Source: a virus. Taken from it: 19,666 nt of DNA. Made by a program: the position numbers and the translations under genes. The notes under the pieces are model-generated. The model was given only the letters and a program-made list of their open reading frames with translations. It made no database searches and had not been told where the DNA came from. Location of the stretch: the UHGV virus genome UHGV-0176920. One strand, written 5' to 3'. Within the stretch, counting starts at the first letter, position 1, and each line of letters opens with the position of its first letter. Below, one piece after another: positions 1 to 19,151 of the stretch.

Positions 1-205
1 TTATGCAGCCATCAGAAAATGATGTCAAAAATATTCCAATGCTTTAGGTTCATTTTTTGGTAAGCGTCAAACATGCGCGTTCTGGCTGTGCGTAACCGGA
101 ACCTGTGCGAGCACGATGTCGATAAGTGAAAGGCATCGTGCTATTAAGGGAGATTCTATCGATGTGGTCAATGGAAGACGGTGACCAGGGATAGGGCTTA
201 TGCAT

Positions 206-232
206 AAAAAATAAGCCTGTGTAAGGGAGATT
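206..232. other. Phage attachment core (att) candidate, P2 attP-core-like 27-mer
   Basis: Sequence aaaaaataagcctgtgtaagggagatt lies ~80 bp beyond the int stop. It matches the P2 attP core as I recall it (AAAAAATAAGCCCGTGTAAGGGAGATT) except one position; recall-based, not searched. Confidence 0.5.
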
Positions 233-311
233 TAGGGTGTCACCAGTAGGGGCTTTCAACGGTACAATGCGGGTTTGAGCGGCATAAATTACCACTGAAA
301 GCCCTTAAACG

Positions 312-1325
312 TTACTCTACTGTGGACACTGTGTGGACACTCTCGGCTTCAGTACCACCTCTTAGCGGATTAAGAGAAATGGCGTCCTGAAGGTACTCTG
401 GCGCAAAATGAGCGTAAACCATAGTTTGCTCAATCCGCGTGTGACCTAGTATCCGTTGTAGCGTGATAATACTTCCTCCATTAATCATGAAATGAGTGGC
501 AAAGCTGTGCCTTAGTGCATGTGTGGCTTGCCCCGTTGGCAAATCCGGTTTTATTGCTTTCATTGTTCGTCTGAAGCGAGGGTAATCAGCATCAGGGAAT
601 AAAAAACCTCGTTTGTTATCCGCGATCATTTTGGCAACAGCCTCTGAGATCGGGACGGTGCGTGGTTTGTTTGTTTTCGTTTTAACAAACGTGACGCGGT
701 TATGGATGATATTTTCTGCTTTCAAACGAGCTGCTTCTCCCCAACGTGCTCCTGTACTCAGGCAAAGAATCGCAATCTTTTTGTTGTCGCCGTCAAGTGC
801 TGCAAGCAGTAAGGCAATTTCTTCCTGTGTGAGATAGCCTGTTTCTGGTTTTTCCTCCTTAAGCCTCTTTGTCCCTCTGATAGGGTGCTCACCAAAGAAT
901 AACTCCGCTTCAATCAGGGCTGTAAACATGCCGCTAATACATGTTAAATCACGATTGATACTCGAAGGTTTAATACCCTGACTTCTTCGGGTGGCGCAGT
1001 ACTGGCTGATAAGGGATTTCGTGATTTGAAATGCGCATGGGTCATTCGTTATTTTTGTGAAGATTTCAATTTTTCCAAGATTAGATTTCCCATGCTCTTC
1101 GTGTTTACCCTTTAAATCCCACCAGATCTGTGTCAGTTCCGACAGACGTCGTTTGTCTGTTGGTTTTGATAGCCATTCTTTATTGTGGTGGTTGTACAAC
1201 GTGTATTTTTCGAAAGCGACAGCTTCGCTTTTCTTATCAAACTTCCTACGGATGCGTTTTCCGTTACGTCCAGTAGGGCGGATGTCCACTTCATATCGAC
1301 CATCATCGAGTTTTTTGATTGCCAT
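312..1325 (-). CDS. int: Tyrosine integrase (P2 Int-like), 337 aa
   Basis: 337-aa ORF with a C-terminal tyrosine-recombinase catalytic region (…HALRHSFATHF…LGHTRIEQTMVYAHF…). N-terminus MAIKKLDDGRYEVDIRPTGRNGKR matches P2 Int as I recall it. GGAGG lies 8 nt upstream of the ATG on the minus strand. Confidence 0.95.
   Translation of the reverse strand: MAIKKLDDGRYEVDIRPTGRNGKRIRRKFDKKSEAVAFEKYTLYNHHNKEWLSKPTDKRRLSELTQIWWDLKGKHEEHGKSNLGKIEIFTKITNDPCAFQITKSLISQYCATRRSQGIKPSSINRDLTCISGMFTALIEAELFFGEHPIRGTKRLKEEKPETGYLTQEEIALLLAALDGDNKKIAILCLSTGARWGEAARLKAENIIHNRVTFVKTKTNKPRTVPISEAVAKMIADNKRGFLFPDADYPRFRRTMKAIKPDLPTGQATHALRHSFATHFMINGGSIITLQRILGHTRIEQTMVYAHFAPEYLQDAISLNPLRGGTEAESVHTVSTVE
321..341. 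promoter_or_regulatory. Tandem direct repeat TGTGGACACT x2 (11-bp period), candidate Int arm-type binding sites
   Basis: tgtggacactg tgtggacact read directly, overlapping the last codons of int. I recall the P2 Int arm-site consensus as TGTGGACA; assignment is by recall. Confidence 0.4.
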
Positions 1326-1440
1326 CAGAAAACCCTCCGAGTGGTACTTTTTTTTGCTACTACTAATCGCTTTTTTCGTGGTGGCTGAAATTTAGCCACC
1401 AATAGTAGGCACTTGTGATGAATATATTCACGATAAATTG

Positions 1441-1740
1441 TTAACCAGTCTTTTGACCGGAGTGGGGCGACGTTGTTTCGTTTTGCCCAAAGTGTGCGAG
1501 AGCGGGCGCAATTTGCCCGGCTTCTGGAGCTACCTGATCAGTCATGAACCACAAAGTATATTTAGTAAATCTGGGATGTTGTAAGACCTTCATTATGGCT
1601 TCAACTCCAGCGTTTTTTGACCGGCTCTCATAGCTCGAAAGTGAGCTGTAGGCTACACCAGTTAATTCACTGAATTCTTTACGGTTTAACCTTTCAGATT
1701 CACGGATTAGCTTCAACTTCTCCGAAACGTCTATTGACAT
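1441..1740 (-). CDS. C: Immunity repressor C (P2 C-like), 99 aa
   Basis: ATG at 1740 chosen inside the longer ORF-track ORF (1441..1812), giving 99 aa starting MSIDVSEKLKLIRE. C-terminal half (FTKYTLWFMT…APALAHFGQNETTSPHSGQKTG) is P2 C-like; the N-terminal HTH part differs from my recollection of P2 C. Divergent to cox. Confidence 0.85.
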   Translation of the reverse strand: MSIDVSEKLKLIRESERLNRKEFSELTGVAYSSLSSYESRSKNAGVEAIMKVLQHPRFTKYTLWFMTDQVAPEAGQIAPALAHFGQNETTSPHSGQKTG

Positions 1741-1817
1741 AATTACTCCGATTGCGTAATTTCTTGCTGATAGTGTGAAATGTTGTGCTTCTGGAGTTAT
1801 CCTTTTAGGCAATAATT

Positions 1818-1836
1818 AGCCATTAGGAGCCATTAG
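1818..1836. promoter_or_regulatory. Candidate repressor operator: direct repeat AGCCATTAG x2 (10-bp period) in the C/cox switch region (Pe/Pc)
   Basis: ttAGCCATTAGgAGCCATTAGaag read directly between C and cox starts. P2 C is known to bind direct rather than inverted repeats; promoter -10/-35 elements were not confidently located. Confidence 0.35.
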
Positions 1837-1861
1837 AAGCACTAAGGGAGAATCGTAGCAG

Positions 1862-2137
1862 ATGAATAGACAGCTTGTAAGCGTGACTGATGCCGTGCCT
1901 TATCAGGAGTTTGCAAAACTCATTGGTAAAACTCCAAGAGCTGTAAGGGGCATGATTGAGAAAGGGAAATTACCAGTTATTGAGATTACTGACCCTCAGT
2001 CAGTATCGGGGCGTGCTGGTGAATATTGGGTATACCTTCCGGCATGGAATAACGGACTAAAACTGGCTTATGAAAGCCGTCCTAAAGAGATTCGTGACGG
2101 CTGGTTGATGTGGTTAGGTCTCGGTGAACCACGTTAA
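1862..2137 (+). CDS. cox: Cox, excisionase / early-promoter regulator (P2 Cox-like), 91 aa
   Basis: 91-aa ORF; sequence …GRAGEYWVYLPAWNNGLKLAYESRPKEIRDGWLMWLGLGEPR matches P2 Cox as I recall it. First gene of the rightward early operon, divergent from C. Confidence 0.9.
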   Translation: MNRQLVSVTDAVPYQEFAKLIGKTPRAVRGMIEKGKLPVIEITDPQSVSGRAGEYWVYLPAWNNGLKLAYESRPKEIRDGWLMWLGLGEPR

Positions 2138-2147
2138 GGAGAACCGT

Positions 2148-2318
2148 ATGAATGAGCCTCGTTGTATTGCTCAGTTATTGCGTAACGAAAGCCCCAGGGC
2201 GATTGACTTCACCATCACCCACGGTAAGGGGCGTAAGGGAATCATTATCCGCACCAAAAAACAGAGTCCGTTAAAAAAGGCTCTGACCTTTCTGAAAAGC
2301 CGGAGGGTCTGGAAATGA
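2148..2318 (+). CDS. Small hypothetical early protein (P2 orf78 position)
   Basis: ATG at 2148 preceded by AAGGAG (2136-2141) inside ORF-track ORF 2124..2318. Basic small protein; stop overlaps the B start (ATGA). Confidence 0.5.
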   Translation: MNEPRCIAQLLRNESPRAIDFTITHGKGRKGIIIRTKKQSPLKKALTFLKSRRVWK

Positions 2319-2815
2319 CAGTGATGACGCTCAATCTCGTTGAAAAACAGCCAGCAGCTATGCGCCGGATAATTGGTAAGCATCTGGCCGTCCCTCGCTG
2401 GCAGGAGACATGCGATTATTATAATCAGATGATGGAACGCGAACGGCTAACGGTTTGCTTCCATGCGCAGTTAAAACAGCGTCACGCAACGATGCGTTTT
2501 GAAGAAATGAACGACGTCGAACGTGAACGGCTGGTTTGTGCAATTGATGAACTGCGTGGGGCATTCTCAAAACGCCGTCAGGTCGGTGCAAGTGAGTATG
2601 CATATATTAGCTTTTTAACTGTCAGTCAGCGCCGTACTTTATTTATGCATGCCGGATTGACTGAAAAAGAATTCAACCAGCCATACTGGCGAATTAATGA
2701 AGAATCATGTTACTGGCGTGATGCCTTATTCCGTGCATTACGTGAATTATTCAGCCTGTTTGAGTATGCACCGACAATTCTGACGTCGGTAAAACCAGAG
2801 CAATATCTGCATTAA
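2315..2815 (+). CDS. B: Replication protein B (P2 B-like, helicase-loader type), 166 aa
   Basis: 166-aa ORF at the P2 B position with the P2 B length; start coupled to the upstream stop. Confidence 0.85.
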   Translation: MTVMTLNLVEKQPAAMRRIIGKHLAVPRWQETCDYYNQMMERERLTVCFHAQLKQRHATMRFEEMNDVERERLVCAIDELRGAFSKRRQVGASEYAYISFLTVSQRRTLFMHAGLTEKEFNQPYWRINEESCYWRDALFRALRELFSLFEYAPTILTSVKPEQYLH

Positions 2816-2878
2816 GTAATTAACCAGAGTTTTTAACGCACTTAATTGTGCGGGGCTTCTTTTTGCCTGGAGAAAGTC

Positions 2879-3103
2879 ATGCATACAGTTTCTGAAAATC
2901 AGTGCGGTAAATACGCATTACTGCTGCAACAGGCCAGAACCGAAGCACAGGCCGACGCAGCGACGCGCTTTTCTTCTCATCTTGACGCCATGATTCGCCA
3001 CATCACAAAGGCGGAGTTATCCCGCGTGGAGATAGTCGAGCTGCTCAGTCAGGAGTCGGAAAAATTTCACAATATCGGATTGTCTCGCGGGGAGGTGCTT
3101 TGA
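2879..3103 (+). CDS. Hypothetical early protein (P2 orf80 position)
   Basis: ATG at 2879 with GGAG 6 nt upstream, inside ORF-track ORF 2846..3103. Position and orientation in the early operon. Confidence 0.6.
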
Positions 3104-3405
3104 TGTCCTGTTCTCGTTCAGTTGTATTACTGAATAACGCCTTAAAAATCGCCGTTATGAAAAATGGCGATTTATCTCTTATTCAACTTGGTCTTGATAA
3201 AGAAAAACGCGAAATAACTGAGTCTGTTATCGCGATTTATCAGAACGAATTAAATCTCCTGTCTGATGTGGTCAATTTACTTGTTAAACGCGCTGTATTT
3301 CACAAGCAAATCTCCTCCGTGGATGAACTGACGAAATTAACGACAGAAATTGCCAGCTATTGCGCTGATGAATTTAAAAAACTTAACGACAAAAGGAGCT
3401 GGTAA
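3100..3405 (+). CDS. Hypothetical early protein (P2 orf81 position), 101 aa
   Basis: ORF with GGGGAGG upstream; start overlaps the previous stop; synteny. Confidence 0.65.
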
Positions 3406-3629
3406 TGCCGGACAACGTAGATTTTATTCAGGAACAACAGGCTGAATTACTGGAGCGCCAGATTAACGCGGCAAGGGTAAAGCATTGCGGTGTTTCTGCG
3501 CTGGTTTGCGAAGAGTGTGACGCGCCAATACCTGCTGCCCGTCGTGCGGCTTATCCGTCAGCCACGCGTTGTGTTTCCTGCCAGTCAGTCTTTGAAGCAA
3601 AAAACAAACATTACCGGAGAACGGCATGA
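3405..3629 (+). CDS. TraR/DksA-family C4 zinc-finger protein (P2 orf82 position), 74 aa
   Basis: Four cysteines in a CxxC…CxxC arrangement (HCGVSALVCEECDAPIP…ATRCVSCQ) typical of TraR/DksA-type zinc fingers; AAGGAG upstream. Confidence 0.75.
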   Translation: MPDNVDFIQEQQAELLERQINAARVKHCGVSALVCEECDAPIPAARRAAYPSATRCVSCQSVFEAKNKHYRRTA

Positions 3630-3907
3630 GTATTCGTATTGAAATTGGCGAGCGTTATGTCGTCACAAATGACCGTTTTCAGTTCATTTTGCAGGAGAGA
3701 AAGACCGCTGAAACCGGGAAGAATGCCGGTAAAGAGTGGCTGGATGTTGTCGGCTATTACCCCAAATTAAACCAGCTCGTTTCCGGTCTGATCCATCACG
3801 ATATTTTGAGCGGTAACGCTGTCTCTTTTGAGGCGCTGAGCTCTCAGGTTGAGCAGCTCGGTCAGCAGTGTCTGACTGCGTTTCTCTGTGCGGGGAAATC
3901 TAAATGA
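3626..3907 (+). CDS. Hypothetical early protein (P2 orf83 position), 93 aa
   Basis: ORF start overlaps the orf82 stop; its stop overlaps ATG 3904 of the next gene (ATGA). Confidence 0.65.
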   Translation: MSIRIEIGERYVVTNDRFQFILQERKTAETGKNAGKEWLDVVGYYPKLNQLVSGLIHHDILSGNAVSFEALSSQVEQLGQQCLTAFLCAGKSK

Positions 3908-4912
3908 TAGTTGATACCCGCTGCCGAGCTGAAAGCTCTATCAATATTATTTCTGTTTCTGGCGGAAAGGATAGCCTTGCTCAATGGCTTGTTGGTATTG
4001 AAAGCGGTGTGCATTTTTTTGCCGGTTTTTGCAGACACCGGGCATGAGCATCCGCAGACAATGGAGTATCTCGATTATCTGGAGAACCGACTCGGGCCGG
4101 TTAAACGGGTTAAAGCTGACTTCTCCCGACAGATTGAAGGTAAGCGCAAGTTTATTGCTGAGAAATGGCCTGTTTCTCTGGTTGAAGAGTGCGGAATGTC
4201 TCCGGGGGAAGCGGCAGAGCGCATCAATTGTGCGCTGGAAATTCTCAAGCCTACTGGTATCCCATTTCTTGATTTGTGCATGTGGAAAGGGCGATTTCCT
4301 TCCACTAAAGCCAGATTTTGCACTTTTGACCTTAAACATGAGCCAGTACGTACTCAGGTCGTGTTACCTGCGCTTAATGAGTTTGATGAGGTAATTAGCT
4401 GGCAGGGGATTCGCGCTCAGGAGTCTCCTGCGCGCGCGGGTCTGCCTGCCTGGGAAGAGGATGCGGACAATACGCCCGGGCTCCATGTATACCGTCCTAT
4501 TCTGAACTGGACGCATGAGGAGGTATTTGCATTTGCAAGACGTCATGGAATTAAACCTAATCCGTTATACCAGCAGGGATGCAGTCGTGTCGGTTGTATG
4601 CCCTGCATCCACGCCAGAAAGTCTGAATTAGCTGAAATTTTTAGTCGCTGGCCGGAAGAGGTTAAGCGTGTTGCGGAATGGGAGCGACTTGTCGCCGCAT
4701 GCTCCAGACGCGGAAATTCTACTTTCTTCCCGTCAACTCATGACCCGCGTCGTGCGGAACGCCGCATTGATATTATTACTGTCGATGCTTACGGAATTGA
4801 GTCTTATCGTGACTGGGCGATGACCACGCGTGGCGGGGCACAGTTTGATTTGCTGGCTTCGGTGAATGATAAGTCAGTTTGCAGTAGTGTCTATGCCGGT
4901 GTATGTGAATGA
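3904..4912 (+). CDS. PAPS reductase / PP-loop ATP-pyrophosphatase family protein (DndC-like), apparently frameshifted near 4014-4030
   Basis: Frame starting at ATG 3904 encodes MIVDTRCRAESSINIISVSGGKDSLAQWLVGIESGVHFF with the PP-loop SGGKDS at 3958-3975, then stops at TGA 4045-4047. The +1 frame (ORF-track 3911..4912) carries the rest of the fold: FADTGHEHPQT, WQGIRAQES..R, LNWTHEEVF, GCSRVGCMPC. Stop overlaps the A start (ATGA). Confidence 0.7.
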
Positions 4913-7194
4913 GTCATTCTTTCCAGGAGCAATACACCTGCGTACCTCCGTCAGCATTTGCTGCAGGCACCGGTAAGGCGTTTACCGGTGCTTATGCATG
5001 GAACGCGCCACGCGAGGCCGTCGGGCGCGAAAGACCCCTTACACGTGACGAGATGCGTCAGGTGCAAGGTGTTTTATCCACGATTAACCGCCTGCCTTAC
5101 TTTTTGCGCTCGCTGTTTACTTCACGCTATGACTACATCCGGCGCAATAAAAGCCCGGTGCACGGGTTTTATTTCCTCACATCTACTTTTCAGCGTCGTT
5201 TATGGCCGCGCATTGAGCGCGTGAATCAGCGCCATGAAATGAACACCGACGCGTCGTTGCTATTTCTGGCAGAGCGTGACCACTATGCGCGCCTGCCTGG
5301 AATGAATGACAAGGAGCTGAAAAAGTTTGCCGCCCGTATCTCATCGCAGCTTTTCATGATGTATGAGGAACTCTGCGATGCATGGGTTGATGCACATGGC
5401 GAAAAAGAATCGCTGTTTACGGATGAGGCGCAGACTCACCTGTATGGTCATGTTGCTGGCGCTGCACGTGCTTTCAATATTTCCCCGCTCTACTGGAAAA
5501 AATACCGTAAAGGACAGATAACCACGAGGCAGGCATATTCTGCCATTGCCCGTCTGTTTAACGATGAGTGGTGGACTCATCAGCTTAAAGGCCAGCGTAT
5601 GCGCTGGCATGAGGCGTTACTGATTGCTGTCGGGGAGGTCAATAAAGACCGTTCTCCTTATGCCAGTAAACATGCCATTCGTGATGTGCGTGCGCGCCGC
5701 CAGGCAAATCTGGAGTTTCTTAAATCGTGTGACCTTGAAAACAGGGAAACCGGCGAACGCATCGACCTTATCAGTAAGGTGATGGGCAGTATTTCTAATC
5801 CTGAAATTCGCCGGATGGAGCTGATGAACACCATTGCCGGTATTGAGCGTTACGCCGCCGCAGAGGGTGATGTGGGGATGTTTATCACGCTGACCGCGCC
5901 GTCAAAGTATCACCCGACACGTCAGGTCGGAAAAGGCGAAAGTAAAACCGTTCAGCTTAATCACGGCTGGAACGATGAGGCATTTAATCCAAAGGATGCG
6001 CAGCGTTATCTCTGCCGTATCTGGAGCCTGATGCGCACGGCATTCAAGGATAATGATTTACAGGTCTACGGTTTGCGAGTCGTCGAGCCACACCACGACG
6101 GAACGCCGCACTGGCATATGATGCTTTTTTGTAATCCACGCCAGCGTAACCAGATTATTGAAATCATGCGTCGCTACGCGCTCAAAGAGGATGGCGACGA
6201 AAGAGGAGCTGCGCGAAACCGTTTTCAGGCAAAACACCTTAACCGGGGCGGTGCTGCAGGGTATATCGCGAAATACATCTCAAAAAACATCGATGGCTAT
6301 GCACTGGATGGTCAGCTCGATAACGATACCGGCAGGCCGCTGAAAGACACTGCCGCGGCTGTTACCGCATGGGCGTCAACGTGGCGCATTCCGCAATTTA
6401 AAACGGTTGGCCTGCCGACAATGGGGGCTTACCGTGAACTACGCAAATTGCCTCGCGGCGTCAGCATTGCTGATGAGTTTGACGAGCGCGTCGAGGCTGC
6501 ACGCGCCGCTGCAGACAGTGGTGATTTTGCGTTGTATATCAGCGCGCAGGGCGGGGCAAATGTCCCGCGCGATTGTCAGACTGTCAGGGTCGCCCGTAGC
6601 CCGTCGGATGACGTTAACGAGTACGAGGAAGAAGTCGAGAGAGTGGTCGGCATTTACGCGCCGCATCTCGGCGCGCGTCATATTCATATCACCAGAACGA
6701 CGGACTGGCGCATTGTTCCGAAAGTGCCGGTCGTTGAGCCTTTGACTTTAAAAAGCGGCATCGCCGCGCCTCGGAGTCCTGTCAATAACTGTGGAAAGCT
6801 CACCGGTGGTGATACTTCGTTACCGGCTCCCACACCTTCTGAGCACGCCGCAGCAGTGCTTAATCTGGTAGATGACGGTGTTATCGAATGGAATGACCCG
6901 GAGGTCGTGAGGGCGCTCAGAGGTGCATTAAAACACGGCCTGAGAAGACCAAACCGTCAGCAAAGAAACGGAAGCCCGTTAAAACCGCATGAAATAGCGC
7001 CATCGGCCAGACTGACCCGGTCTGAACGATTGCAAATCACCCGTATCCGCGTTGACCTTGCTCAGAACGGTATCAGGCCGCAGCGATGGGAGCTTGAGGC
7101 GCTGGCGCGTGGCGCGACCGTAAATTATGACGGGAAAAAATTCACGTATCCGGTCGCTGATGAGTGGTCGGGATTCTGGCATCAATTTGAGTAA
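4909..7194 (+). CDS. A: Replication initiation protein A (rolling-circle nickase, P2 A-like), 761 aa
   Basis: 761-aa ORF of P2 A length at the P2 A position; contains a paired-tyrosine-type segment (…GYIAKYISKNIDGY…) and HxH-like segment (…DGTPHWHMMLF…) typical of rolling-circle initiators. Confidence 0.95.
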   Translation: MSHSFQEQYTCVPPSAFAAGTGKAFTGAYAWNAPREAVGRERPLTRDEMRQVQGVLSTINRLPYFLRSLFTSRYDYIRRNKSPVHGFYFLTSTFQRRLWPRIERVNQRHEMNTDASLLFLAERDHYARLPGMNDKELKKFAARISSQLFMMYEELCDAWVDAHGEKESLFTDEAQTHLYGHVAGAARAFNISPLYWKKYRKGQITTRQAYSAIARLFNDEWWTHQLKGQRMRWHEALLIAVGEVNKDRSPYASKHAIRDVRARRQANLEFLKSCDLENRETGERIDLISKVMGSISNPEIRRMELMNTIAGIERYAAAEGDVGMFITLTAPSKYHPTRQVGKGESKTVQLNHGWNDEAFNPKDAQRYLCRIWSLMRTAFKDNDLQVYGLRVVEPHHDGTPHWHMMLFCNPRQRNQIIEIMRRYALKEDGDERGAARNRFQAKHLNRGGAAGYIAKYISKNIDGYALDGQLDNDTGRPLKDTAAAVTAWASTWRIPQFKTVGLPTMGAYRELRKLPRGVSIADEFDERVEAARAAADSGDFALYISAQGGANVPRDCQTVRVARSPSDDVNEYEEEVERVVGIYAPHLGARHIHITRTTDWRIVPKVPVVEPLTLKSGIAAPRSPVNNCGKLTGGDTSLPAPTPSEHAAAVLNLVDDGVIEWNDPEVVRALRGALKHGLRRPNRQQRNGSPLKPHEIAPSARLTRSERLQITRIRVDLAQNGIRPQRWELEALARGATVNYDGKKFTYPVADEWSGFWHQFE

Positions 7195-7320
7195 GGATCT
7201 CATCTATACAGTATAAGTAGTTTTGACTGTAATTGATTGTTTTTTATATGGTTGCATGCATTAAATCTACGTCAATATCATTATGTTATAATGCATTACT
7301 TAAAAATGTTGGAGATAAAA

Positions 7321-7512
7321 ATGTTAAAGCCTGCAGATGTTGTTTGTTTGAAAAGCGGTGGATTTAAAATGACTGTATCTGACTCTACTGAAACTCATGC
7401 TAAATGTATTTGGCATGATAAAGAAGGAGTTTTGCACGAGGAGTCATTCTCCATTGATTTACTGGAAATAGCAGAGAGTAAAAGTGGTATGCTTTGTCGT
7501 CCACGTAAGTGA
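7321..7512 (+). CDS. Small DUF2158 (YodC-like) family protein, 63 aa (P2 orf91 position)
   Basis: ATG 7321 preceded by GGAG (7311-7314), inside ORF-track ORF 7237..7512 which begins with TTG. Motif LKSGGFKMTV resembles the DUF2158 signature as I recall it. AT-rich. Confidence 0.55.
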   Translation: MLKPADVVCLKSGGFKMTVSDSTETHAKCIWHDKEGVLHEESFSIDLLEIAESKSGMLCRPRK

Positions 7513-7539
7513 ATCATAATAAAATTCACGGGGGAAAGT

Positions 7540-8220
7540 ATGAAACAATACAGCGAATTAGAAAACAATGTTAAGAGATTCATTGTTGAGCATGAAAAAG
7601 GGATTTCTATTGATGATATTCATCATAAGTTCCGGATGAAGGATGGTCAGAATCGCAAGATGGCAGATTATCTTATTGATAATAAAAAGATAATTTTGGA
7701 GATGAAAAGTCTTTTTTCTGACAGGGTCAAGAATGTCAATGATAAACTGAATGAGTTGGTTAAAACTGATAGTTGGCTTGCAAAAAACTGGCATGGTGCT
7801 ATTCATTTAGAAGAGTTGATAAAAAGACACCCAGACTCAAAGCGATTTAGAAATGATATAATGAACTTTGCTTATGAAAATATTAAAACAAAGATAGTTA
7901 AGGAAGCTAATAAGCAAATAAATGCAACAAAGGATGTTTTGGATTTAAATGACTCGATTGGCGGGTTGATTTTGTTAAATGATAATGTCTTTTCACATGA
8001 GTCTAATTATTTGTCAGATGAAATATTATATTTGCTAGGCACAAAGAGATATTCGAGTGTTGAGTTTGTGGTTTATATTGCAAAATTGATTGATAAACAG
8101 GTTGATGTTTGTGTGCTACTTGACAGTCAATCTAAAAATAAAAATTATATTGAATGGTATATGAATAATGTTTTTTTATTGAACTGGGCGTCTTTTAATA
8201 AATATGCAATAAAGATGTAG
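7540..8220 (+). CDS. Hypothetical protein, 226 aa, cargo gene at the P2 tin position; function unknown
   Basis: Clean ORF with GGGGGAAAG-type RBS before ATG 7540, 27 nt downstream of the small ORF (likely co-transcribed). Strongly AT-rich, Lys/Asn-rich protein with no Walker or catalytic signature I can recognise. Confidence 0.7.
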   Translation: MKQYSELENNVKRFIVEHEKGISIDDIHHKFRMKDGQNRKMADYLIDNKKIILEMKSLFSDRVKNVNDKLNELVKTDSWLAKNWHGAIHLEELIKRHPDSKRFRNDIMNFAYENIKTKIVKEANKQINATKDVLDLNDSIGGLILLNDNVFSHESNYLSDEILYLLGTKRYSSVEFVVYIAKLIDKQVDVCVLLDSQSKNKNYIEWYMNNVFLLNWASFNKYAIKM

Positions 8221-8539
8221 TGGTGTGGATGGATATGAAATGAGTCAACCAAGATGCACCTTGGTCAGTAATCTCATGTGAGATACCACATATAACACCA
8301 AAAGTGTCAGGTTGATGGCCATTGTTCACCGTTTACAGCAGATTATGGTCAACGAAAATCTGACGCCTGACGAGCTGGTCGGGTGTGCCGAAATAGTCTG
8401 GGATAATTACGGGCGGTTTAACTATATCGGTCAGTCCAGAGTTGCGCCACCACCACGCAGACGATAGAGAACGCCGCCAGTCGTGAAACTTGTTTTCAGG
8501 CTGGCGGAGTTGAACAACGAGCGAAGTGAGGCGTTAGCA

Positions 8540-9481
8540 TTAAGTTAATTTTAATGAATGGTACTCTATCGAGCTGATTGTAGATGCGATATATTTACGA
8601 TCATTTACAGAGAGTATTGCCGCTAGTAGACGACATACCAGAGCCTGCATTTGTAGCAATATATCGCTACCATATTGACAATCATTGATACTAGAGAAAC
8701 CAAGCGGTTGCCCATTAAAAATGGCTTCATGAAAATTATCATTGCGTATAACTGAAACATTACATTCATCTGTTGCCCATGACGGGATTTTTACACCGTA
8801 ATTTTCGCACATCCAATATACTCTATTTTGATGAGATGGTTTTTTCTCTTTAATGACTTTATCCCTTTCATCCCATGCTATAGCAAAACAGCAATCAAGA
8901 GCCATATAAAGATACTGGAATTTCTCAAAGGAAAGGTATAGTGGGTTATGTGACAGGAATAGGGAGTGTATCACCGCAGCTATTCTTTTAATGGAGCGAT
9001 CATCTTTTTGTTTGTCTTTTATATAGTTAAGTGCTAGCTCTATTACTTCTTTTTCAGAGCATCCAACGAGAATAAAGTCGGTTAACTTAGTGGGCTTGAT
9101 AGTGGTTGCATCAAGAAAACCAGCGTCAGTGGTTGTCAATCTTATACCCTTGAAAAAAGAGAGGCACCACACAACAAAGTTGAGAGTTTCTAACGAGGAT
9201 GTGTTTTTTAATTTTAGTGTGTGCGTTTTGGGCATGCCGAATACTCGGTAACTATAAGGCATTGTGCATGTGTCACCATTAAGGTTATATACCTTTCGAT
9301 TCCCAGGGTATATCCAACCATTAACAACGTTTTTATCATTGTTAATACGTTCCACGTTCTCAATAAGACCGGGTAAAGTACGCAAAGAAAATTGTTCAGT
9401 CTCAATGTTAACTTCTACTGGATAGTATCCAAACTCCGAAATAATCTCATTTGGTTGCTGTTCGTCAACTTCACCTTGCAT
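8540..9481 (-). CDS. Hypothetical protein, 313 aa, cargo gene adjacent to cos; function unknown
   Basis: Minus-strand ORF with GGAG 7 nt upstream of ATG 9481, convergent with the 226-aa gene. AT-rich. Contains one R-N-D-N-F-H string (codons at 8729-8746), a weak Rx4H match to a HEPN-type motif. Confidence 0.7.
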   Translation of the reverse strand: MQGEVDEQQPNEIISEFGYYPVEVNIETEQFSLRTLPGLIENVERINNDKNVVNGWIYPGNRKVYNLNGDTCTMPYSYRVFGMPKTHTLKLKNTSSLETLNFVVWCLSFFKGIRLTTTDAGFLDATTIKPTKLTDFILVGCSEKEVIELALNYIKDKQKDDRSIKRIAAVIHSLFLSHNPLYLSFEKFQYLYMALDCCFAIAWDERDKVIKEKKPSHQNRVYWMCENYGVKIPSWATDECNVSVIRNDNFHEAIFNGQPLGFSSINDCQYGSDILLQMQALVCRLLAAILSVNDRKYIASTISSIEYHSLKLT

Positions 9482-9719
9482 AACTTTCTCCGTTCAAAAA
9501 CAGGCACGATAATTCTCGTAAGCCTATCATGTTCGCAAAGTATCCATACCTGTGGATTTTGTAAATTTAAGTTGATTTGTCATTAAATAAGCCGTTGCAT
9601 GCAACAAGTGAATGTTTTTGCATGCGTCGGGGATGTCCGTTCAGGCTGCGTGCGGTCAGGACTGGTGCGGATCCATAGTATCTATGCAACTGCATTAAAA
9701 CCGCCCCATGAAGCGGGCG

Positions 9720-9738
9720 GGCGAGGCGGGGAAAGCAC
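9720..9738. other. cos site candidate (P2-type 19-nt cohesive end sequence)
   Basis: ggcgaggcggggaaagcac read directly; it matches the P2/P4 cohesive-end sequence as I recall it and sits where cos is expected, between the tin/old-equivalent locus and Q. Confidence 0.5.
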
Positions 9739-9872
9739 TGCGCGCTGGCGGTGGTGCTGATTTTATTTTTTCAGCGTCTCAGCGCGTCGTGATGGCATTT
9801 AGTCGGCCTGCTGGGGCGTTGGTGTGTCTGCGGGGTGTTTTGTGCGGTGGTGAGGGCGTGATGACGGGATGT

Positions 9873-9894
9873 AAAAAAGCCGCCCGCAGGCGGC
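9873..9894 (-). terminator. Rho-independent terminator candidate downstream of Q (minus strand)
   Basis: Plus strand aaaaaa-GCCGCC-cgca-GGCGGC; on the minus strand this is a GC stem-loop followed by TTTTTT, starting 6 nt after the Q stop. Confidence 0.5.
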
Positions 9895-9899
9895 GATGT

Positions 9900-10934
9900 T
9901 CAGCCGTTGTCAGTGTCAAGTGAGTAGTTTTTAAAGCGGATGACCTCCTGACCGAGCCAGTCGTTTATCTCGCGGATCCTGTCCTGTAACGGGATAAGCT
10001 CATTGCGGACAAAGACCTTTGCCACTTTCTCAATATCACCCAGCGACCCGACGTTCTCCGGCTTGCCACCCATCAACTGAAAGGGGATGCGGTGCGCGTC
10101 CAGCAGGTCAGCGGCGCTGGCTTTTTTGATATTAAAAAAATCGTCCTTCGTCGCCACTTCACTGAGGGGGATAATTTTAATGCCGTCGGCTTTCCCCTGT
10201 GGGGCATAGAGAAACAGATTTTTAAAGTTATTGCGGCCTTTCGACTTCACCATGTTTTCGCGAAGCATTTCGATATCGTTGCGATCCTGCACGGCATCGG
10301 TGACGTACATGATGTATCCAGCATGTGCGCCATTTTCGTAATACTTGCGGCGGAACAGCGTGGCCGACTCATTCAGCCAGGCAGAGTTAAGGGCGCTGAG
10401 ATATTCCGGCAGGCCGTACAGCTCCTGATTAATATCCGGCTCCAGCAGGTGAAACACGGAGCCGGACGCGAAGGCTGTCGGCTCGTTGAAGGACGGCACC
10501 CACCAGTAAACATCCTCCTCCACGCCACGGCGGGTATATTTTGCCGGTGAGGTTTCCAGCCTGATAACCTTACCGGTGGTGCTGTAACGCTTTTCCAGAA
10601 ACGCATTACCGAACACCAGAAAATCCAGCACAAAGCGGCTGAAATCCTGCTGGGAAAGCCACGGGTGCGGAATAAACGTTGAAGCCAGAATATTACGTTT
10701 GACGTAAATCGGTGAGCTGTGATGTACGGCAGCACGCAGGCTTTTTGCCAGACCGGTAAAGCTGACCGGTGGCTCATACCATCTGCCGTTACTGATGCAC
10801 TCGACGTAATCCAGAATGTCACGGCGGTCGAGTACCGGCACCGGCTCACCAAAGGTGAATGCCTCCATTTTCGGGGCGCTGGCGGTCATTGTTTTCACCG
10901 CAGGTTGCGGTGTTTTCCCTTTTTTCTTGCTCAT
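9900..10934 (-). CDS. Q: Portal protein (P2 gpQ-like), 344 aa
   Basis: 344-aa ORF (P2 Q length) starting MSKKKGKTPQPAVKTMTASAPKMEAFTFGEP, directly downstream of and start-overlapping the terminase gene on the minus strand. Confidence 0.95.
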   Translation of the reverse strand: MSKKKGKTPQPAVKTMTASAPKMEAFTFGEPVPVLDRRDILDYVECISNGRWYEPPVSFTGLAKSLRAAVHHSSPIYVKRNILASTFIPHPWLSQQDFSRFVLDFLVFGNAFLEKRYSTTGKVIRLETSPAKYTRRGVEEDVYWWVPSFNEPTAFASGSVFHLLEPDINQELYGLPEYLSALNSAWLNESATLFRRKYYENGAHAGYIMYVTDAVQDRNDIEMLRENMVKSKGRNNFKNLFLYAPQGKADGIKIIPLSEVATKDDFFNIKKASAADLLDAHRIPFQLMGGKPENVGSLGDIEKVAKVFVRNELIPLQDRIREINDWLGQEVIRFKNYSLDTDNG

Positions 10935-12706
10935 CAGTAAAACTCCAGAATGGTGGATGTCAGCGGGGTGCTGATACCGGCGGTGAGTGGCTCATTTAAC
11001 AGGGCGTGCATGGTCGCCCAGGCGAGGTCGGCGTGGCTGGCTTCCTCGCTGCGACTGGCCTCATAGGTGGCGCTGCGTCCGCTGCTGGTCATGGTCTTGC
11101 GGATAGCCATAAACGAGCTGGTGATGTCGGTGGCGCTGACGTCATATTCCAGACAGCCACGGCGGATAACGTCTTTTGCCTTGAGCACCATTGCGGTTTT
11201 CATTTCCGGTGTGTAGCGGATATCGCGCGCGGCGGGATAGAACGAGCGCACGAGCTGGAACACGCCGACACCGAGGCCGGTGGCATCAATACCGATGTAT
11301 TCGACGTTATATTTTTCGGTGAGTTTGCGGATGGATTCAGCCTGGGTGGCAAAGTCCATGCCTTTCCACTGGTGACGCTCAAGTATCCTGAATTTGCCAC
11401 CGGCCACCACCGGCGGTGCCAGCACCACGCATCCGGCGCTGTCGCCACGGTGTGACGGGTCGTAACCAATCCATACCGGGCGGGAGCCGAACGGATTGGC
11501 GGCAAACGGTGCATAGTCTTCCCATTCTTCCAGCGTGTCGACCATGCAGCGTTGCAGCTCCTCGAACGGGAACACCGATGCCTTGTCGTCAACAAATTCA
11601 CACATGAACAGGTTTTTAAAATCGTCGGCGCTGTTTTCGCGTTTGAGCTGCTCAATGTCGAACAGTGTGCAGCCACCTTTCAGGGCGTCCTCAATGGTGA
11701 CAATCTGCCGCCACTGGCCGTCCGCACAGAGAAGCCCACCGGCAAGGGCGTTATGACTGACGTCGATTTCCACACGTTCGGCGGCGCTGGCGCGTCCCCG
11801 GTTGAACAGTTCACCCGACCAGAACGGGTAGGCGTCGTGCGCCAGTGTGGACGGGGTGGAGAAATAGGTCGAGCGCAGGTGACTCTGTGAGGCCATACCT
11901 GATGCCACCTTACGCAGAACCTGAAAATTTGGGATCCAGAAAATCTCGTCGACGTACAGGTCACCGTTATGGCTCTGTGCGGTGTTGGAGTTGGTGCCGA
12001 GAAAAATCAGTTTTGCGCCGTTATTGCCCAGGACAATCGGGTCACCGGTCAGGTCAACGTCAACCAGACGGGCAAAGGCGATGATGTATTCACGGAACAC
12101 ATACGCCTGCGTTTTACTGGCCGACAGAAAAATCTGGTTATGACCGGTTTTCAGGGCGCGCAGCAGCGCCTCGCGGGAAAAATAAAATGTCGCGCCAATC
12201 TGGCGGGATTTCAGGATATCGCGGATGCGGTGCTCAAGCCCGGCGCGATACCAGTGCAACTGATAGTCGAAAGACTGCTCAAAGAAAATCTGCTCCAGCT
12301 TTTCGATAGCCTCGTCACTGAAAAAATTCTTTTTCGGTTTGCGCCGCCCGCCTTTGTTGCGGTTAGCGACGTTCGGATTAAGGTCTGCCTCGTTGCCGGT
12401 CTGGCTGTAGCGGTTTACCCGTGCCAGTCGTTCAATCTGGCGTCCGAGCAGGTCAATTTCCTTGAAGTCACCGCCGGTTTTCTGCGGTTTGATAATGAGC
12501 TGGGTCAGCCGCGCTTCCAGACTCATTTCGACACGGCTGATGGGGGCAACGCTGTCCCAGCCGTCGCGCTGTTTCCAGCTCTGCACCGTCGGGCGTTTCA
12601 TCTGCAACATGGCGGCAATCTGCGGCACGGAAAACCCCTGCCAGTACAGCAGCGCCGCCTGACGACGCGGGTCGTGTAAAAGAGTGGTGTCTGTGGTGAT
12701 GGTCAT
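10934..12706 (-). CDS. P: Terminase large (ATPase) subunit (P2 gpP-like), 590 aa
   Basis: ATG at 12706 (GAGGT upstream) chosen inside ORF-track ORF 10934..12736, giving the 590-aa P2 P length with N-terminus MTITTDTTLLHDPRRQAALLYWQGF. Divergent from O. Confidence 0.95.
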   Translation of the reverse strand: MTITTDTTLLHDPRRQAALLYWQGFSVPQIAAMLQMKRPTVQSWKQRDGWDSVAPISRVEMSLEARLTQLIIKPQKTGGDFKEIDLLGRQIERLARVNRYSQTGNEADLNPNVANRNKGGRRKPKKNFFSDEAIEKLEQIFFEQSFDYQLHWYRAGLEHRIRDILKSRQIGATFYFSREALLRALKTGHNQIFLSASKTQAYVFREYIIAFARLVDVDLTGDPIVLGNNGAKLIFLGTNSNTAQSHNGDLYVDEIFWIPNFQVLRKVASGMASQSHLRSTYFSTPSTLAHDAYPFWSGELFNRGRASAAERVEIDVSHNALAGGLLCADGQWRQIVTIEDALKGGCTLFDIEQLKRENSADDFKNLFMCEFVDDKASVFPFEELQRCMVDTLEEWEDYAPFAANPFGSRPVWIGYDPSHRGDSAGCVVLAPPVVAGGKFRILERHQWKGMDFATQAESIRKLTEKYNVEYIGIDATGLGVGVFQLVRSFYPAARDIRYTPEMKTAMVLKAKDVIRRGCLEYDVSATDITSSFMAIRKTMTSSGRSATYEASRSEEASHADLAWATMHALLNEPLTAGISTPLTSTILEFY

Positions 12707-12879
12707 GAATACCTCGCCGTGATGAATACACGGCAAGGCTACTGAGTCGCGCCCCGCGATTCGCTAAGGTGCTGTTGTGTCAGTGATAAGCCATCCGGGA
12801 CTGATGGCGGAGGATGCGCATCGTCGGGAAACTGATGCCGACATGTGACTCCTCTAATCACTATTCAGGACTCCTGACA

Positions 12880-13734
12880 ATGGCAAAAAAAGTCTCAAAA
12901 TTCTTTCGTATCGGCGTTGAGGGTGACACCTGTGACGGGCGTGTCATCAGTGCGCAGGATATTCAGGAAATGGCCGAAACCTTTGACCCGCGAGTCTATG
13001 GTTGCCGCATTAACCTGGAACATCTGCGCGGCATCCTGCCTGACGGTATTTTTAAGCGTTATGGCGATGTGGTCGAACTGAAGGCCGAAAAGATTGACGA
13101 TGATTCGGCGCTGAAAGGCAAATGGGCGCTGTTTGCGAAAATCACCCCGACCGATGACCTTATCGCGATGAACAAGGCCGCGCAGAAGGTCTACACCTCA
13201 ATGGAAATTCAGCCGAACTTTGCCAACACCGGCAAATGTTATCTGGTGGGGCTGGCCGTCACCGATGACCCGGCAAGCCTCGGCACGGAATACCTGGAAT
13301 TCTGCCGCACGGCAAAACACAACCCTCTGAACCGCTTCAAATTAAGCCCTGAAAACCTGATTTCAGTGGCAACGCCCGTTGAGCTGGAATTTGAAGACCT
13401 GCCTGAAACCGTGTTCACCGCCCTGACCGAAAAGGTGAAATCCATTTTTGGCCGCAAACAGGCCAGCGATGACGCCCGTCTGAATGACGTGCATGAAGCG
13501 GTGACCGCTGTTGCTGAACATGTGCAGGAAAAACTGAGCGCCACTGAGCAGCGCCTCGCTGAGATGGAAACCGCCTTTTCCGCACTTAAGCAGGCGGTGA
13601 CTGACAGGGCGGATGAAACCAGCCAGGCATTCACCCGCCTGAAAAACAGTCTCGACCACACCGAAAGTCTGACCCAGCAGCGCCGCAGCAAGGCCACCGG
13701 TGGTGGCGGTGACGGCCTGATGACGAACTGCTGA
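12880..13734 (+). CDS. O: Capsid scaffolding protein (P2 gpO-like), 284 aa
   Basis: ATG 12880 chosen inside ORF-track ORF 12814..13734, giving 284 aa starting MAKKVSKFFRIGVEGDTCDGRV as in P2 O. Confidence 0.9.
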   Translation: MAKKVSKFFRIGVEGDTCDGRVISAQDIQEMAETFDPRVYGCRINLEHLRGILPDGIFKRYGDVVELKAEKIDDDSALKGKWALFAKITPTDDLIAMNKAAQKVYTSMEIQPNFANTGKCYLVGLAVTDDPASLGTEYLEFCRTAKHNPLNRFKLSPENLISVATPVELEFEDLPETVFTALTEKVKSIFGRKQASDDARLNDVHEAVTAVAEHVQEKLSATEQRLAEMETAFSALKQAVTDRADETSQAFTRLKNSLDHTESLTQQRRSKATGGGGDGLMTNC

Positions 13735-13792
13735 CCGGCGTCAGTCAGTCCGGGAAAACCTTCACGATTAACCCTTAATTTCAGGAAAAACT

Positions 13793-14866: not shown

Positions 14867-14869
14867 CCG

Positions 14870-15613: not shown

Positions 15614-15712
15614 CAACCGAATGCGCCCCGCGCCAGGGCGGCACGCCGGTCAGTGAGGGTGAATCACCTGACACTGCACCGGCGTCCACCGCCCGACTTT
15701 TCAGAGGTAGTC

Positions 15713-16222: not shown

Positions 16223-16425
16223 TGAAGACCTTTGCGCTACAGGGTGACACGCTCGACGCCATTTGTGTCCGGTATTACGGGCGCACTGAGGGCGTGGTTG
16301 AGACCGTGCTCGCCGCAAATCCGGGACTGGCTGAACTGGGTGCGGTGCTGCCACACGGCACCGCCGTCGAACTGCCCGACGTTCAGACCGCGCCCGTGGC
16401 TGAAACTGTCAATCTGTGGGAGTAA
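16222..16425 (+). CDS. X: Tail protein X (P2 gpX-like), 67 aa
   Basis: ATG 16222 inside ORF-track ORF 16153..16425 gives 67 aa starting MKTFALQGDTLDAICVRYYGR; P2 X length and position. Confidence 0.8.
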   Translation: MKTFALQGDTLDAICVRYYGRTEGVVETVLAANPGLAELGAVLPHGTAVELPDVQTAPVAETVNLWE

Positions 16426-16428
16426 CGC

Positions 16429-17207: not shown

Positions 17208-17221
17208 ACGGAGTAAACACC

Positions 17222-19145: not shown

Positions 19146-19151
19146 AGAGGT

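What the first reader, a model, noticed from the sequence alone, without database searches (positions are those of the whole stretch)
3904..4912. PAPS-reductase/PP-loop family gene inserted between orf83 and A, with its SGGKDS motif out of frame
By P2 map naming, orf83 is followed directly by A, so this ~1 kb gene is an insertion into the early replication operon. It is start/stop coupled on both sides (ATGA overlaps at 3904 and 4909). The ATG-initiated frame encodes the PP-loop but terminates at 4045-4047, while the remaining fold motifs are in the +1 frame; the junction lies in T-runs at 4014-4029 (removing one T from the 5-T run would give …GVHFFAGFADTGHEHPQT…). This could be a real inactivating mutation, a sequencing error, or programmed frameshifting. 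Phage PAPS-reductase-like proteins are associated with DNA modification, but the function here is unknown.
Basis: partly seen in the sequence, partly recalled or inferred. Interest (0 to 1): 0.6.

Follow-up and report, generated by a model that had tools for sequence, protein, structure and literature searches.

The report
Frameshifted prophage PAPS-reductase-like pseudogene
A P2-like prophage of E. coli carries the phage-186 "orf84" PAPS-reductase-like gene, broken by one extra T in a run of six; this is a real, inherited mutation already flagged as a pseudogene in RefSeq, so it is ordinary except for a possible knock-on effect on the replication gene A just downstream.

Summary
ATG 3904 opens a frame that encodes the PP-loop (SGGKDS) and stops at 4045-4047. 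The rest of a PF01507 protein runs in the +1 frame to 4912, with ATGA overlaps at both ends. Alignment with intact orthologues places the lesion in the 7-T run at 4014-4020, which is T6 in E. coli C11, Yersinia phage P37 and others.

The T7 allele is a real mutation:
- Nine complete E. coli genomes carry it, including the PacBio ST131-H30Rx strain JJ2434.
- Its predicted product occurs on 277 public contigs.
- RefSeq annotation (PGAP) already calls it "frameshifted".

It is not conserved recoding. An 82%-identical allele has no T run at the site. A -1 slip leads into the wrong frame. No stimulatory RNA structure was found.

The gene is not a novel insertion. It is the homologue (82% identity) of phage 186 Orf84, in the same orf83-orf84-A position.

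The intact family looks like a DndC/SspD-like sulphur-transfer enzyme of phage early regions. Its function is inferred, not shown.

One point of interest remains. The phage 186 record states that translation to the end of orf84 appears necessary for translation of A. The premature stop may therefore lower A expression. This is untested.

The parts
3626..3907 (+). orf83-type gene (DUF5405, 93 aa). Its stop overlaps the PAPS-reductase start (ATGA at 3904-3907).
3904..4912 (+). Whole PAPS-reductase-family pseudogene, the homologue of phage 186 orf84. RefSeq annotates the identical locus as 'frameshifted'.
3904..4047 (+). 5' fragment in the ATG frame: 47 codons including the PP-loop SGGKDS (3958-3975), ending at TGA 4045-4047.
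4014..4020 (+). The 7-T run that holds the extra base. Intact orthologues have T6 here.
4021..4912 (+). Remaining 297 codons in the +1 frame. They carry the DTG, FCT, RAQES and GCMPC motifs and the C-terminal CSSVYAGVCE.
4061..4063 (+). First ATG in the PAPS frame after the premature stop (13-nt gap, no clear Shine-Dalgarno (SD) sequence). It is a possible weak reinitiation site. The product would lack the PP-loop.
   Evidence: inference
4909..7194 (+). Replication gene A (761 aa, Phage_GPA), intact. Its start overlaps the PAPS-reductase stop (ATGA). The junction TATGCCGGTGTATGTGAATGA is identical to phage 186 orf84/A.
5149..5175 (+). Terminator-like hairpin plus U tract inside the 5' part of A. 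It may be the counterpart of phage 186 tM1. Weak evidence.
   Evidence: the analogy to 186 rests

Best explanation
The gene is the phage-186-orf84-type PAPS-reductase-family gene of a P2-like (Peduovirus) prophage integrated next to yegR in E. coli.

Shown: in one prophage lineage, which includes the ST131-H30Rx strain JJ2434, a single T was added to a T6 tract. Inferred: this arose by replication slippage. The result is T7 at 4014-4020. Translation from ATG 3904 now leaves the enzyme frame after the PP-loop and stops at 4045-4047. No full-length enzyme is encoded, so the gene is a recent pseudogene inherited with the prophage.

Inferred from family features: the intact 335-aa protein is a PP-loop ATP-pyrophosphatase-type enzyme. 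It has four to five invariant cysteines (C139, C231xxC234, C326, C334). This suggests an Fe-S cluster plus a C-terminal reactive cysteine, as in APS reductase or DndC-type sulphur-transfer enzymes. It is expressed from the early operon. It most likely acts on phage or host nucleic acid as a non-essential DNA-modification or anti-restriction function.

Inferred consequence: the stop now lies 861 nt upstream of the A start, so termination-reinitiation coupling of A to this gene is lost. A must then rely on its own weak GGUG Shine-Dalgarno (SD) sequence.
For: Frames and motifs.

Placement of the indel: the window and E. coli 4/0 have T7. E. coli C11, phage P37 and OU784746 have T6, and P37 differs from the window by nothing else over 3800-5000.

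Reality of the allele:
- 9 complete genomes are 100% identical over 3800-5000, and eight of them over 1-19590.
- The ORF product specific to the T7 allele (311 aa) is on 277 contigs in NCBI, ENA and Logan. The index lists it in 464 blocks.
- One IMG/VR contig also carries T7.
- JJ2434 is a PacBio ST131-H30Rx genome.
- PGAP marks the locus as a frameshifted pseudogene.

Ancestral state:
- The exact repaired protein is on 128 contigs.
- Thousands of single-frame homologues exist (5420 at E<=1e-5), and the 120 best listed are mostly ~335 aa, across Enterobacterales.
- T6 is present in four other prophage variants and one metagenome contig.
- T6 alleles sit in prophages at the cpxP and pflA sites.

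Identity with 186 Orf84: 82% identity, same position.

Family features:
- Pfam PF01507.
- PHROG 424.
- PADLOC SspD 8.6e-22, BrxP 1e-15, DndC 6e-7.
- The AF2 core is confident, and the nearest solved folds are CysH/APS reductase and TtuA.
- Invariant cysteines and motifs persist down to 37% identity.

Coupling:
- The 186 record notes 'translation to end of orf84 appears necessary for translation of A protein'.
- The junction sequence is identical.
- Coupling is almost abolished at gaps of about 20 nt in E. coli (PMC10666635).
Against: No read data could be inspected, so the argument against a systematic homopolymer error rests on the number and diversity of assemblies.

Low-level frameshift suppression cannot be excluded. 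Non-programmed suppression of 1-10% has been measured in E. coli for -1 events (PMC10861913).

The function of the intact protein is untested. The 186 record says only 'unknown function; not essential'.

The same T7 prophage sits at a second, att-like site in one assembly (L011). This suggests the element still moves and argues against a severe defect in A expression.
Confidence: 0.88

Rival explanations
1. Sequencing or assembly error: the true sequence has T6 and the gene is intact.
For: The lesion is a single base in a homopolymer, which is the classic long-read error type (sequence).
Against: The identical T7 is in 9 finished genomes from different laboratories and countries. It is on 277 contigs, including Logan assemblies of public sequencing runs and ENA, and in one IMG/VR contig. 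T6 is called correctly in near-identical copies elsewhere, so the assemblers resolve this tract. T7 tracks one prophage lineage rather than appearing at random.
Confidence: 0.02
2. Programmed recoding: a +1 ribosomal frameshift or transcriptional slippage on the U7 run yields functional full-length enzyme, with the 47-aa product as a by-product.
For: The run of 7 U allows tRNA-Phe to re-pair in the +1 frame (UUU_U). A GGUG lies 5 nt upstream. The repaired product would be exactly the wild-type protein (sequence). Background frameshift suppression of a few per cent is known.
Against: The two-frame arrangement is confined to identical copies. The closest orthologues are single-frame T6. An 82%-identical allele has CCCATATTG with no run, so nothing is conserved. 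The canonical U_UUU_UUU -1 slip leads into the third frame, not the enzyme frame. There is no hungry or stop codon after the shift site. The downstream RNA fold is no better than shuffles (z = -0.34). There is no Rfam match. In E. coli, transcript slippage in homopolymers gives insertions, mostly single-base (80%). Deletions within runs are under 1% of all transcript deletions (PMC5574713). Rescue here needs a 1-nt deletion or a 2-nt insertion.
Confidence: 0.04
3. Phase-variable contingency tract: the T run switches the enzyme (and perhaps A) on and off reversibly in the population.
For: Both T6 and T7 occur on otherwise identical gene sequences. T7 occurs in two prophage variants and at two chromosomal sites.
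Against: Only two states were seen. The ORF products expected from otherwise identical T5 or T8 alleles were not in the collection, and no T5/T8/T9 matched the pattern scans. All T7 copies share the same int/yegR-type prophage backbone, with zero SNPs over 3582-5261, which fits a single origin plus flanking recombination. A run of 6-7 T is short for a bacterial contingency locus (general knowledge). The tract is absent from other alleles.
Confidence: 0.05
4. Consequence hypothesis, which can hold together with the best explanation: the premature stop is polar on gene A and leaves the prophage replication-attenuated or 'grounded'.
For: The phage 186 record states that translation to the end of orf84 appears necessary for A translation, and it lists an intragenic terminator for untranslated A. 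The orf84/A junction is identical here. The stop-to-start distance is now 861 nt, and coupling fails beyond about 20 nt. A terminator-like hairpin lies 240 nt into A. There is no compensatory change near the A start relative to T6 copies.
Against: A has a GGUG 7 nt upstream of its ATG, and its start region is not notably structured (z = 0.25). The rest of the prophage is intact. The same T7 prophage is found joined to a second att-like site, so it has moved since the mutation, or the mutation arose twice. Reinitiation at ATG 4061 could restore some ribosome flow. The 186 statement is a database note that I could not check in a paper.
Confidence: 0.3

Closest known systems
Phage 186 Orf84 (NP_052288 / AAC34185; 'Uncharacterized 37.8 kDa protein in GpA 5' region')
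   Same: 82% protein identity over the full length. Same position between orf83 and A, same ATGA overlap and identical junction sequence, same C-terminal ...AGVCE.
   Different: 186 Orf84 is intact and has no T run at the site. Here the gene sits in a P2-type backbone (P2-length A of 761 aa, cox/C-type switch) and is frameshifted.
DndC / SspD / BrxP: PAPS-reductase-like sulphur-transfer components of DNA phosphorothioation systems
   Same: PF01507 PP-loop core. The best defence-library matches are SspD (8.6e-22), BrxP (1.1e-15) and DndC (6.5e-7). Conserved cysteines are compatible with an Fe-S cluster.
   Different: It scores far below the NCBIfam DndC cut-off (22.6 against 290.4 bits). No partner genes (DndA/D/E, SspB/C, BrxC/PglZ) are in the prophage. 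It is a stand-alone 335-aa protein.
CysH / APS reductase (assimilatory PAPS and APS reductases)
   Same: Nearest solved folds (6vpu, 2oq2, 2goy, 1sur). Shared motifs include DTG, R..ES and a CxxC as in APS reductase.
   Different: It is below all NCBIfam cysH/APS cut-offs. It has an inserted helical segment at about residues 74-128. There is no ECGLH C-terminus, and it ends CSSVYAGVCE instead. The genomic context is a phage early operon, not sulphate assimilation.
Vibrio phage PAPS-reductase-Dam fusion with anti-Dnd activity (Piel et al., bioRxiv 10.1101/2021.05.05.442762)
   Same: A phage-encoded PAPS-reductase-domain protein in a variable early region. Methylase genes lie next to or near homologues of the present protein in phiE125 and Parlo, and downstream of A in P37.
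   Different: That protein is a 479-aa fusion with a Dam domain. Direct homology to it was not tested here, and no anti-Dnd assay exists for the 186/P2-type protein.
Known recoding sites on homopolymers (prfB +1, dnaX/IS -1, mxiE T9 transcriptional slippage)
   Same: A reading-frame change located in a run of identical bases.
   Different: No conservation across orthologues, no stimulatory element, the wrong direction for the canonical -1 heptamer, and a run shorter than the 9-nt runs used in documented transcriptional slippage.

Membership tests
Pfam PF01507 PAPS_reduct (PP-loop ATP pyrophosphatase superfamily) | Score above the Pfam gathering threshold over the whole domain | tested here: met
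In the window itself the domain is split between two frames.
Pfam PF01507 PAPS_reduct | PP-loop SGGKDS in frame with the rest of the domain | tested here: not met
   SGGKDS is in the ATG frame, which stops at 4045-4047. The remainder is in the +1 frame. The feature is met in T6 orthologues.
Phage 186 Orf84 orthologue group (PHROG 424) | High full-length identity and conserved position between orf83 and A with overlapping stop/start | tested here: met
   82% identity over residues 2-335, same neighbours, identical junction. phrog_424 E = 2e-84.
DndC (DNA phosphorothioation sulfurtransferase) | NCBIfam TIGR03183 equivalog score | tested here: not met
   22.6 bits against a 290.4 cut-off.
DndC / SspD / BrxP systems | Operon partners (DndA/D/E, SspB/C, or BrxC/PglZ/BrxL) nearby | tested here: not met
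   None is annotated anywhere in the 33-kb prophage of strain 4/0. PADLOC gave no hits for the neighbouring cargo genes.
CysH / APS reductase | NCBIfam equivalog or subfamily score, and the C-terminal ECGLH catalytic motif | tested here: not met
   The best score is 66.8 bits against a 154 cut-off (NF002537), and 45.6 against 165.1 for TIGR00434. The C-terminus is ...CSSVYAGVCE.
Fe-S-containing sulphur-transfer enzyme (APS reductase / TtuA-like) | Bound [4Fe-4S] cluster ligated by conserved cysteines | not testable with these tools
   C139, C231, C234, C326 and C334 are invariant down to 37% identity. The C-terminal 67 residues are modelled at low confidence.
Programmed ribosomal frameshift or transcriptional slippage site | Two-frame arrangement and slippery motif conserved among diverged orthologues | tested here: not met
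   T6 single frame in the closest orthologues. No run in the 82% allele. All the best-scoring homologues are mostly ~335 aa single-frame proteins.
Programmed ribosomal frameshift or transcriptional slippage site | Stimulatory element (downstream structure, upstream SD at the correct spacing, or a slow codon) | tested here: inconclusive
   The fold of 4000-4070 is no better than shuffles (z = -0.34). A GGUG lies 5 nt upstream of the shift codon, not the 3 nt seen in prfB. The next codons, UUU and GCC, are common (sequence, own knowledge).
Phage anti-Dnd PAPS-reductase proteins | Experimentally shown relief of Dnd restriction | not tested
   The only evidence is the literature precedent for a different fusion protein.

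The most novel reading that the evidence does not exclude
The T6/T7 tract works as a switch that does more than kill an accessory enzyme. By ending translation 861 nt before the coupled start of replication gene A, the T7 state throttles A synthesis. This keeps a P2-like prophage of the pandemic ST131-H30Rx lineage in a replication-attenuated, host-tolerated state. Reversion to T6, or rare +1 slippage, restores both the enzyme and full replicative competence.
Probability: 0.08. Interest if true: 0.5.

Novelty: already known. Interest (0 to 1): 0.15.

Why it matters
It matters mainly as a clean negative. An apparent recoding candidate turns out to be a lineage-specific homopolymer frameshift that public annotation already marks as a pseudogene, in a gene known since the phage 186 sequence (orf84).

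Two small points have wider use. First, the 186/P2-type PAPS-reductase-like family is sizeable and conserved (350 clusters at 50% identity with E<=1e-30). It is still uncharacterised. It sits in phage early regions, with DNA methylase or ParB-domain genes adjacent or nearby in some phages, and it is a reasonable anti-restriction or DNA-modification candidate. Second, natural T6 and T7 alleles that differ by a single base form an isogenic pair. They could be used to test both the enzyme's role and the translational coupling of replication gene A reported for phage 186.

Tried and rejected
Rejected by alignment with intact orthologues.
- **Conserved slippery site.** Rejected: the 82% allele lacks the run.
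- **A -1 slip on U_UUU_UUU.** It leads into the third frame, not the enzyme frame.
- **Frameshift-stimulating or start-sequestering RNA structure.** Folds of 4000-4070 and 4840-4960 are no better than shuffles. Rfam and tRNA scans of the window are empty.
- **Compositionally foreign insertion.** Rejected: G+C is about 0.50, like the flanks, whereas the cargo at 7250-9500 is 0.30-0.43.
- **Membership in CysH or DndC equivalogs.** Rejected on curated cut-offs.
- **Solved structure of DndC or SspD for comparison.** None appeared among the PDB sequence or Foldseek hits.
- **Contexts of the exact T6 protein (P0122).** Annotated regions of T6-bearing genomes were used instead.
- **Open-access paper documenting the 186 orf84-A coupling.** None found. 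Only the GenBank note is available.
- **Promoter and terminator scans of 1300-7600.** Nothing above expectation for promoters. The terminator-like list did not include the 5149-5175 hairpin, which was found by eye and folded separately.
Full report
**1. What is in the sequence.**
The window is the left two-thirds of a P2-like (Peduovirus-type) prophage. Its genes in order are:
- int (312-1325, minus strand), a C-type repressor and cox;
- B, orf80 (DUF2732), orf81 (DUF5405), orf82 (TraR/DksA zinc finger) and orf83 (DUF5405);
- the gene in question, then replication gene A (4909-7194, Phage_GPA);
- a low-G+C cargo slot, followed by the portal, terminase, capsid, lysis and tail genes.

- orf83 ends at 3907 and overlaps ATG 3904.
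- That frame reads MIVDTRCRAESSINIISVSGGKDSLAQWLVGIESGVHFFAGFCRHRA and stops at 4045-4047.
- The +1 frame is open from 3911 to 4912 and holds the rest of a PAPS-reductase-family protein.
- A starts at 4909 in an ATGA overlap.
- With one T removed, the 335-aa product matches Pfam PF01507 end to end (E = 1.1e-35).

**2. Where the lesion is.**
The region has two T runs: T7 at 4014-4020 and T5 at 4026-4030. Megablast against 5,426 complete E. coli genomes gave three groups:
- nine genomes 100% identical over 3800-5000;
- five genomes matching over 1,200 rather than 1,201 bases;
- about thirty genomes with an allele of about 80% identity.

Two phage genomes also match over 1,200 bases: Yersinia phage P37 and a 'Peduovirus P2' assembly, OU784746. 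The alignment shows a single difference. The window and strain 4/0 have T7, while C11 and P37 have T6. P37 has no other difference across 3800-5000. The ancestral reading is therefore ...SGVHFLPVFADTGHEHPQT.... RefSeq annotates the identical locus in strain 4/0 as 'phosphoadenosine phosphosulfate reductase family protein, pseudogene, frameshifted'. The T6 copies are annotated as normal 335-aa proteins (WP_000634534.1, QIW90028.1).

**3. Real mutation or sequencing error?**
- Eight of the nine genomes are 100% identical to the window over 1-19590, and JJ2434 is 99.6% identical.
- They come from different laboratories and countries. JJ2434 is a PacBio ST131-H30Rx genome.
- Gene callers turn the T7 allele into a 311-aa ORF starting at TTG 3977. 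That exact protein is on 277 contigs from NCBI, ENA and Logan. The index lists it in 464 blocks.
- The exact repaired 335-aa protein is on 128 contigs.
- A pattern scan allowing T5-T9 found T6 in four IMG/VR contigs and one metagenome contig, and T7 in one IMG/VR contig. The T7 contig is 100% identical to the window. The T6 contigs are 97-98% identical prophage variants.
- T6 copies in complete genomes sit in P2-like prophages with other integrases, at cpxP and pflA.

So T7 tracks one prophage lineage and is called consistently. This is an inherited mutation, not a sequencing artefact. I could not inspect reads.

**4. Programmed frameshifting or slippage?**
Nothing supports it.
- The arrangement is not conserved. 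The nearest orthologues are single-frame. The 82%-identical allele (RS571) has CCCATATTG at the site, with no T run. The 120 best homologues, from Enterobacter, Salmonella, Providencia, Yersinia, Pectobacterium and Serratia, are mostly ~335 aa.
- The direction is wrong for the obvious mechanism. U_UUU_UUU is a -1 heptamer, but a -1 slip enters the third frame. Rescue needs a +1 ribosomal shift, a one-base deletion in the transcript, or a two-base insertion.
- In E. coli, transcript slippage in homopolymers gives insertions, 80% of them single-base. Fewer than 1% of transcript deletions start within uninterrupted runs (PMC5574713). Surveys of functional slippage worked with runs of nine (PMC1088944).
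- The RNA downstream of the run folds no better than shuffled sequence (z = -0.34). There is no Rfam match.
- Background, non-programmed suppression at the per-cent level cannot be excluded (PMC10861913).

**5. Is it an 'insertion'?**
It is one only relative to the P2 map. tblastn against phage genomes shows that phage 186 Orf84 is 82% identical over the full length and lies between Orf83 and A. The phiE125 annotation already noted the similarity to 'Phage 186 Orf84'. The G+C content of the gene (about 0.50) equals that of its flanks, unlike the cargo slot at 7250-9500 (0.30-0.43). Compared with a P2-like phage that lacks the gene (Wphi), the exchangeable module runs from a variant orf83 to about codon 11 of A. 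Of 998 E. coli genomes matching any part of the 1.2-kb query, 44 carry the gene.

**6. What the intact protein probably does.**
This part is inferred.
- It belongs to PHROG 424.
- In the defence library its best matches are SspD (8.6e-22), BrxP (1.1e-15) and DndC (6.5e-7). It falls far below the curated cut-offs for DndC, CysH and APS reductase. It is therefore a distinct branch of the PAPS-reductase superfamily.
- The AlphaFold model is confident over residues 1-228 (mean pLDDT 74 overall) and poor after 269. It resembles CysH, APS reductase and TtuA most closely.
- Homologues down to 37% identity, from Burkholderia, Pseudomonas, Serratia and E. coli phages, keep the following: the PP-loop; the ADT motif; FPxxxxxFC(139)T; WxGxRxxES; NPLY...RVGC(231)xxC(234); and a C-terminal C(326)SSxYGxC(334)E.
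- This pattern is typical of an ATP-pyrophosphatase with an Fe-S cluster and a mobile C-terminal cysteine.
- Neighbours in other phages are DNA methyltransferases and ParB-domain proteins. In phiE125 the order is methylase, this gene, ParB-like. Parlo has dam and ASCH genes downstream. Riah has a ParB-domain protein about 2 kb upstream.
- A phage PAPS-reductase-Dam fusion has been shown to counter the Dnd system (bioRxiv 10.1101/2021.05.05.442762). PAPS reductases in Aca-regulated operons have been proposed as anti-defence genes (PMC13551039).
- The family comprises 350 clusters at 50% identity with E<=1e-30, mostly 300-400-aa stand-alone proteins.
- The 186 record calls Orf84 'unknown function; not essential'.

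My best guess is a non-essential early enzyme that modifies nucleic acid or interferes with sulphur-based host DNA-modification defence (confidence about 0.4).

**7. A possible knock-on effect.**
The 186 record adds that 'translation to end of orf84 appears necessary for translation of A protein'. It also annotates tM1, a terminator 85 nt into A that is expected to act when A is not translated. The last 21 nt of the junction (TATGCCGGTGTATGTGAATGA) are identical in 186 and the window. With the frameshift, ribosomes stop 861 nt before the A start. In E. coli, termination-reinitiation coupling is almost lost at gaps of about 20 nt (PMC10666635). A terminator-like hairpin plus U tract lies at 5149-5175 inside A (dG -11.9 kcal/mol, z = -1.9).

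Against a severe effect:
- A has a GGUG 7 nt upstream of its ATG.
- The start region is not unusually structured (z = 0.25).
- ATG 4061, 13 nt after the premature stop, could allow weak reinitiation in the enzyme frame.
- The rest of the prophage is intact, apart from an IS3 fragment.
- In one assembly (L011) the same T7 prophage, 100% identical over 12.7 kb, is joined to gsiABCD-like genes. The joint is a partial copy of the P2 att core, TTAAAAAGCCGCAGCAAGGGAGATT. The core at window 205-231 is AAAAAATAAGCCTGTGTAAGGGAGATT. This looks like integration at a secondary site after the mutation arose.

I rate polarity on A at about 0.3.

**8. One origin or several?**
A second T7 variant (L009) differs from the window by 46 SNPs. 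They cluster in orf81-orf82 (3037-3581) and in A (5262-7159), with none between 3582 and 5261. L009 also carries a different cargo set. This fits one origin followed by flanking recombination. Independent recurrence on the same allele cannot be excluded, because T6 copies are also identical across the gene. No T5, T8 or T9 allele was found.

**9. Verdict.**
The case is ordinary: a homopolymer +1T frameshift in a non-essential accessory gene that has been known since phage 186 and is already annotated as a pseudogene. Two open questions remain, both testable with the natural T6/T7 pair: the function of the enzyme family, and the coupling to gene A.

Noticed in passing
window 205-231; L008 about 2430-2460 (reverse strand); L011 about 4225-4250: The P2-type att core AAAAAATAAGCCTGTGTAAGGGAGATT marks the int-side prophage end next to yegR. 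In assembly GCA_964019685.1 the same T7-bearing prophage is joined to gsiABCD-like genes through a partial core (TTAAAAAGCCGCAGCAAGGGAGATT). This suggests integration at a secondary att site, or a rearrangement.
   Followed up: partly
window 7321-9481: This is the low-G+C (0.30-0.43) cargo slot between A and the portal gene. It holds a DUF2158 protein (63 aa), a 226-aa protein (phrog_20483) and a 313-aa minus-strand protein (phrog_5937), none with Pfam function or PADLOC hits. In related prophages the same slot holds a C5-methyltransferase with a BbrUII/HgiDII restriction enzyme, an ATP-dependent nuclease, or a reverse transcriptase. The contents here are therefore candidate unknown defence genes.
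   Followed up: partly
window 19591-19666: The last 76 bases diverge from all nine otherwise identical complete genomes. The break lies inside a minus-strand hypothetical ORF (19152-19616). The source strain therefore differs from them here.
   Followed up: partly
window 5149-5175: A terminator-like hairpin (GCCCGGUGCACGGGU) followed by UUUUAUUU lies 240 nt inside gene A. It resembles in kind the tM1 intragenic terminator annotated 85 nt into phage 186 A.
   Followed up: partly
window 3037-3581 and 5262-7159 compared with L009: SNPs between two T7-bearing prophage variants cluster in orf81-orf82 and in A, with none across the PAPS-reductase gene. This is a patchwork typical of recombination among P2-like prophages.
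   Followed up: yes
L005 (OU784746.1, labelled 'Peduovirus P2'): This record is labelled P2 but carries the orf84-type PAPS-reductase gene (annotated cysH) and other differences from the P2 map. The label is probably a loose assignment to a P2-like phage.
   Followed up: no
window 4909-4941: The first 11 codons or so of A (MSHSFQEQYTC...) differ from those of P2-like phages that lack the gene (Wphi: MAVKASGRF...), after which the sequences converge. The 5' end of A therefore travels with the orf83-variant and PAPS-reductase module.
   Followed up: partly
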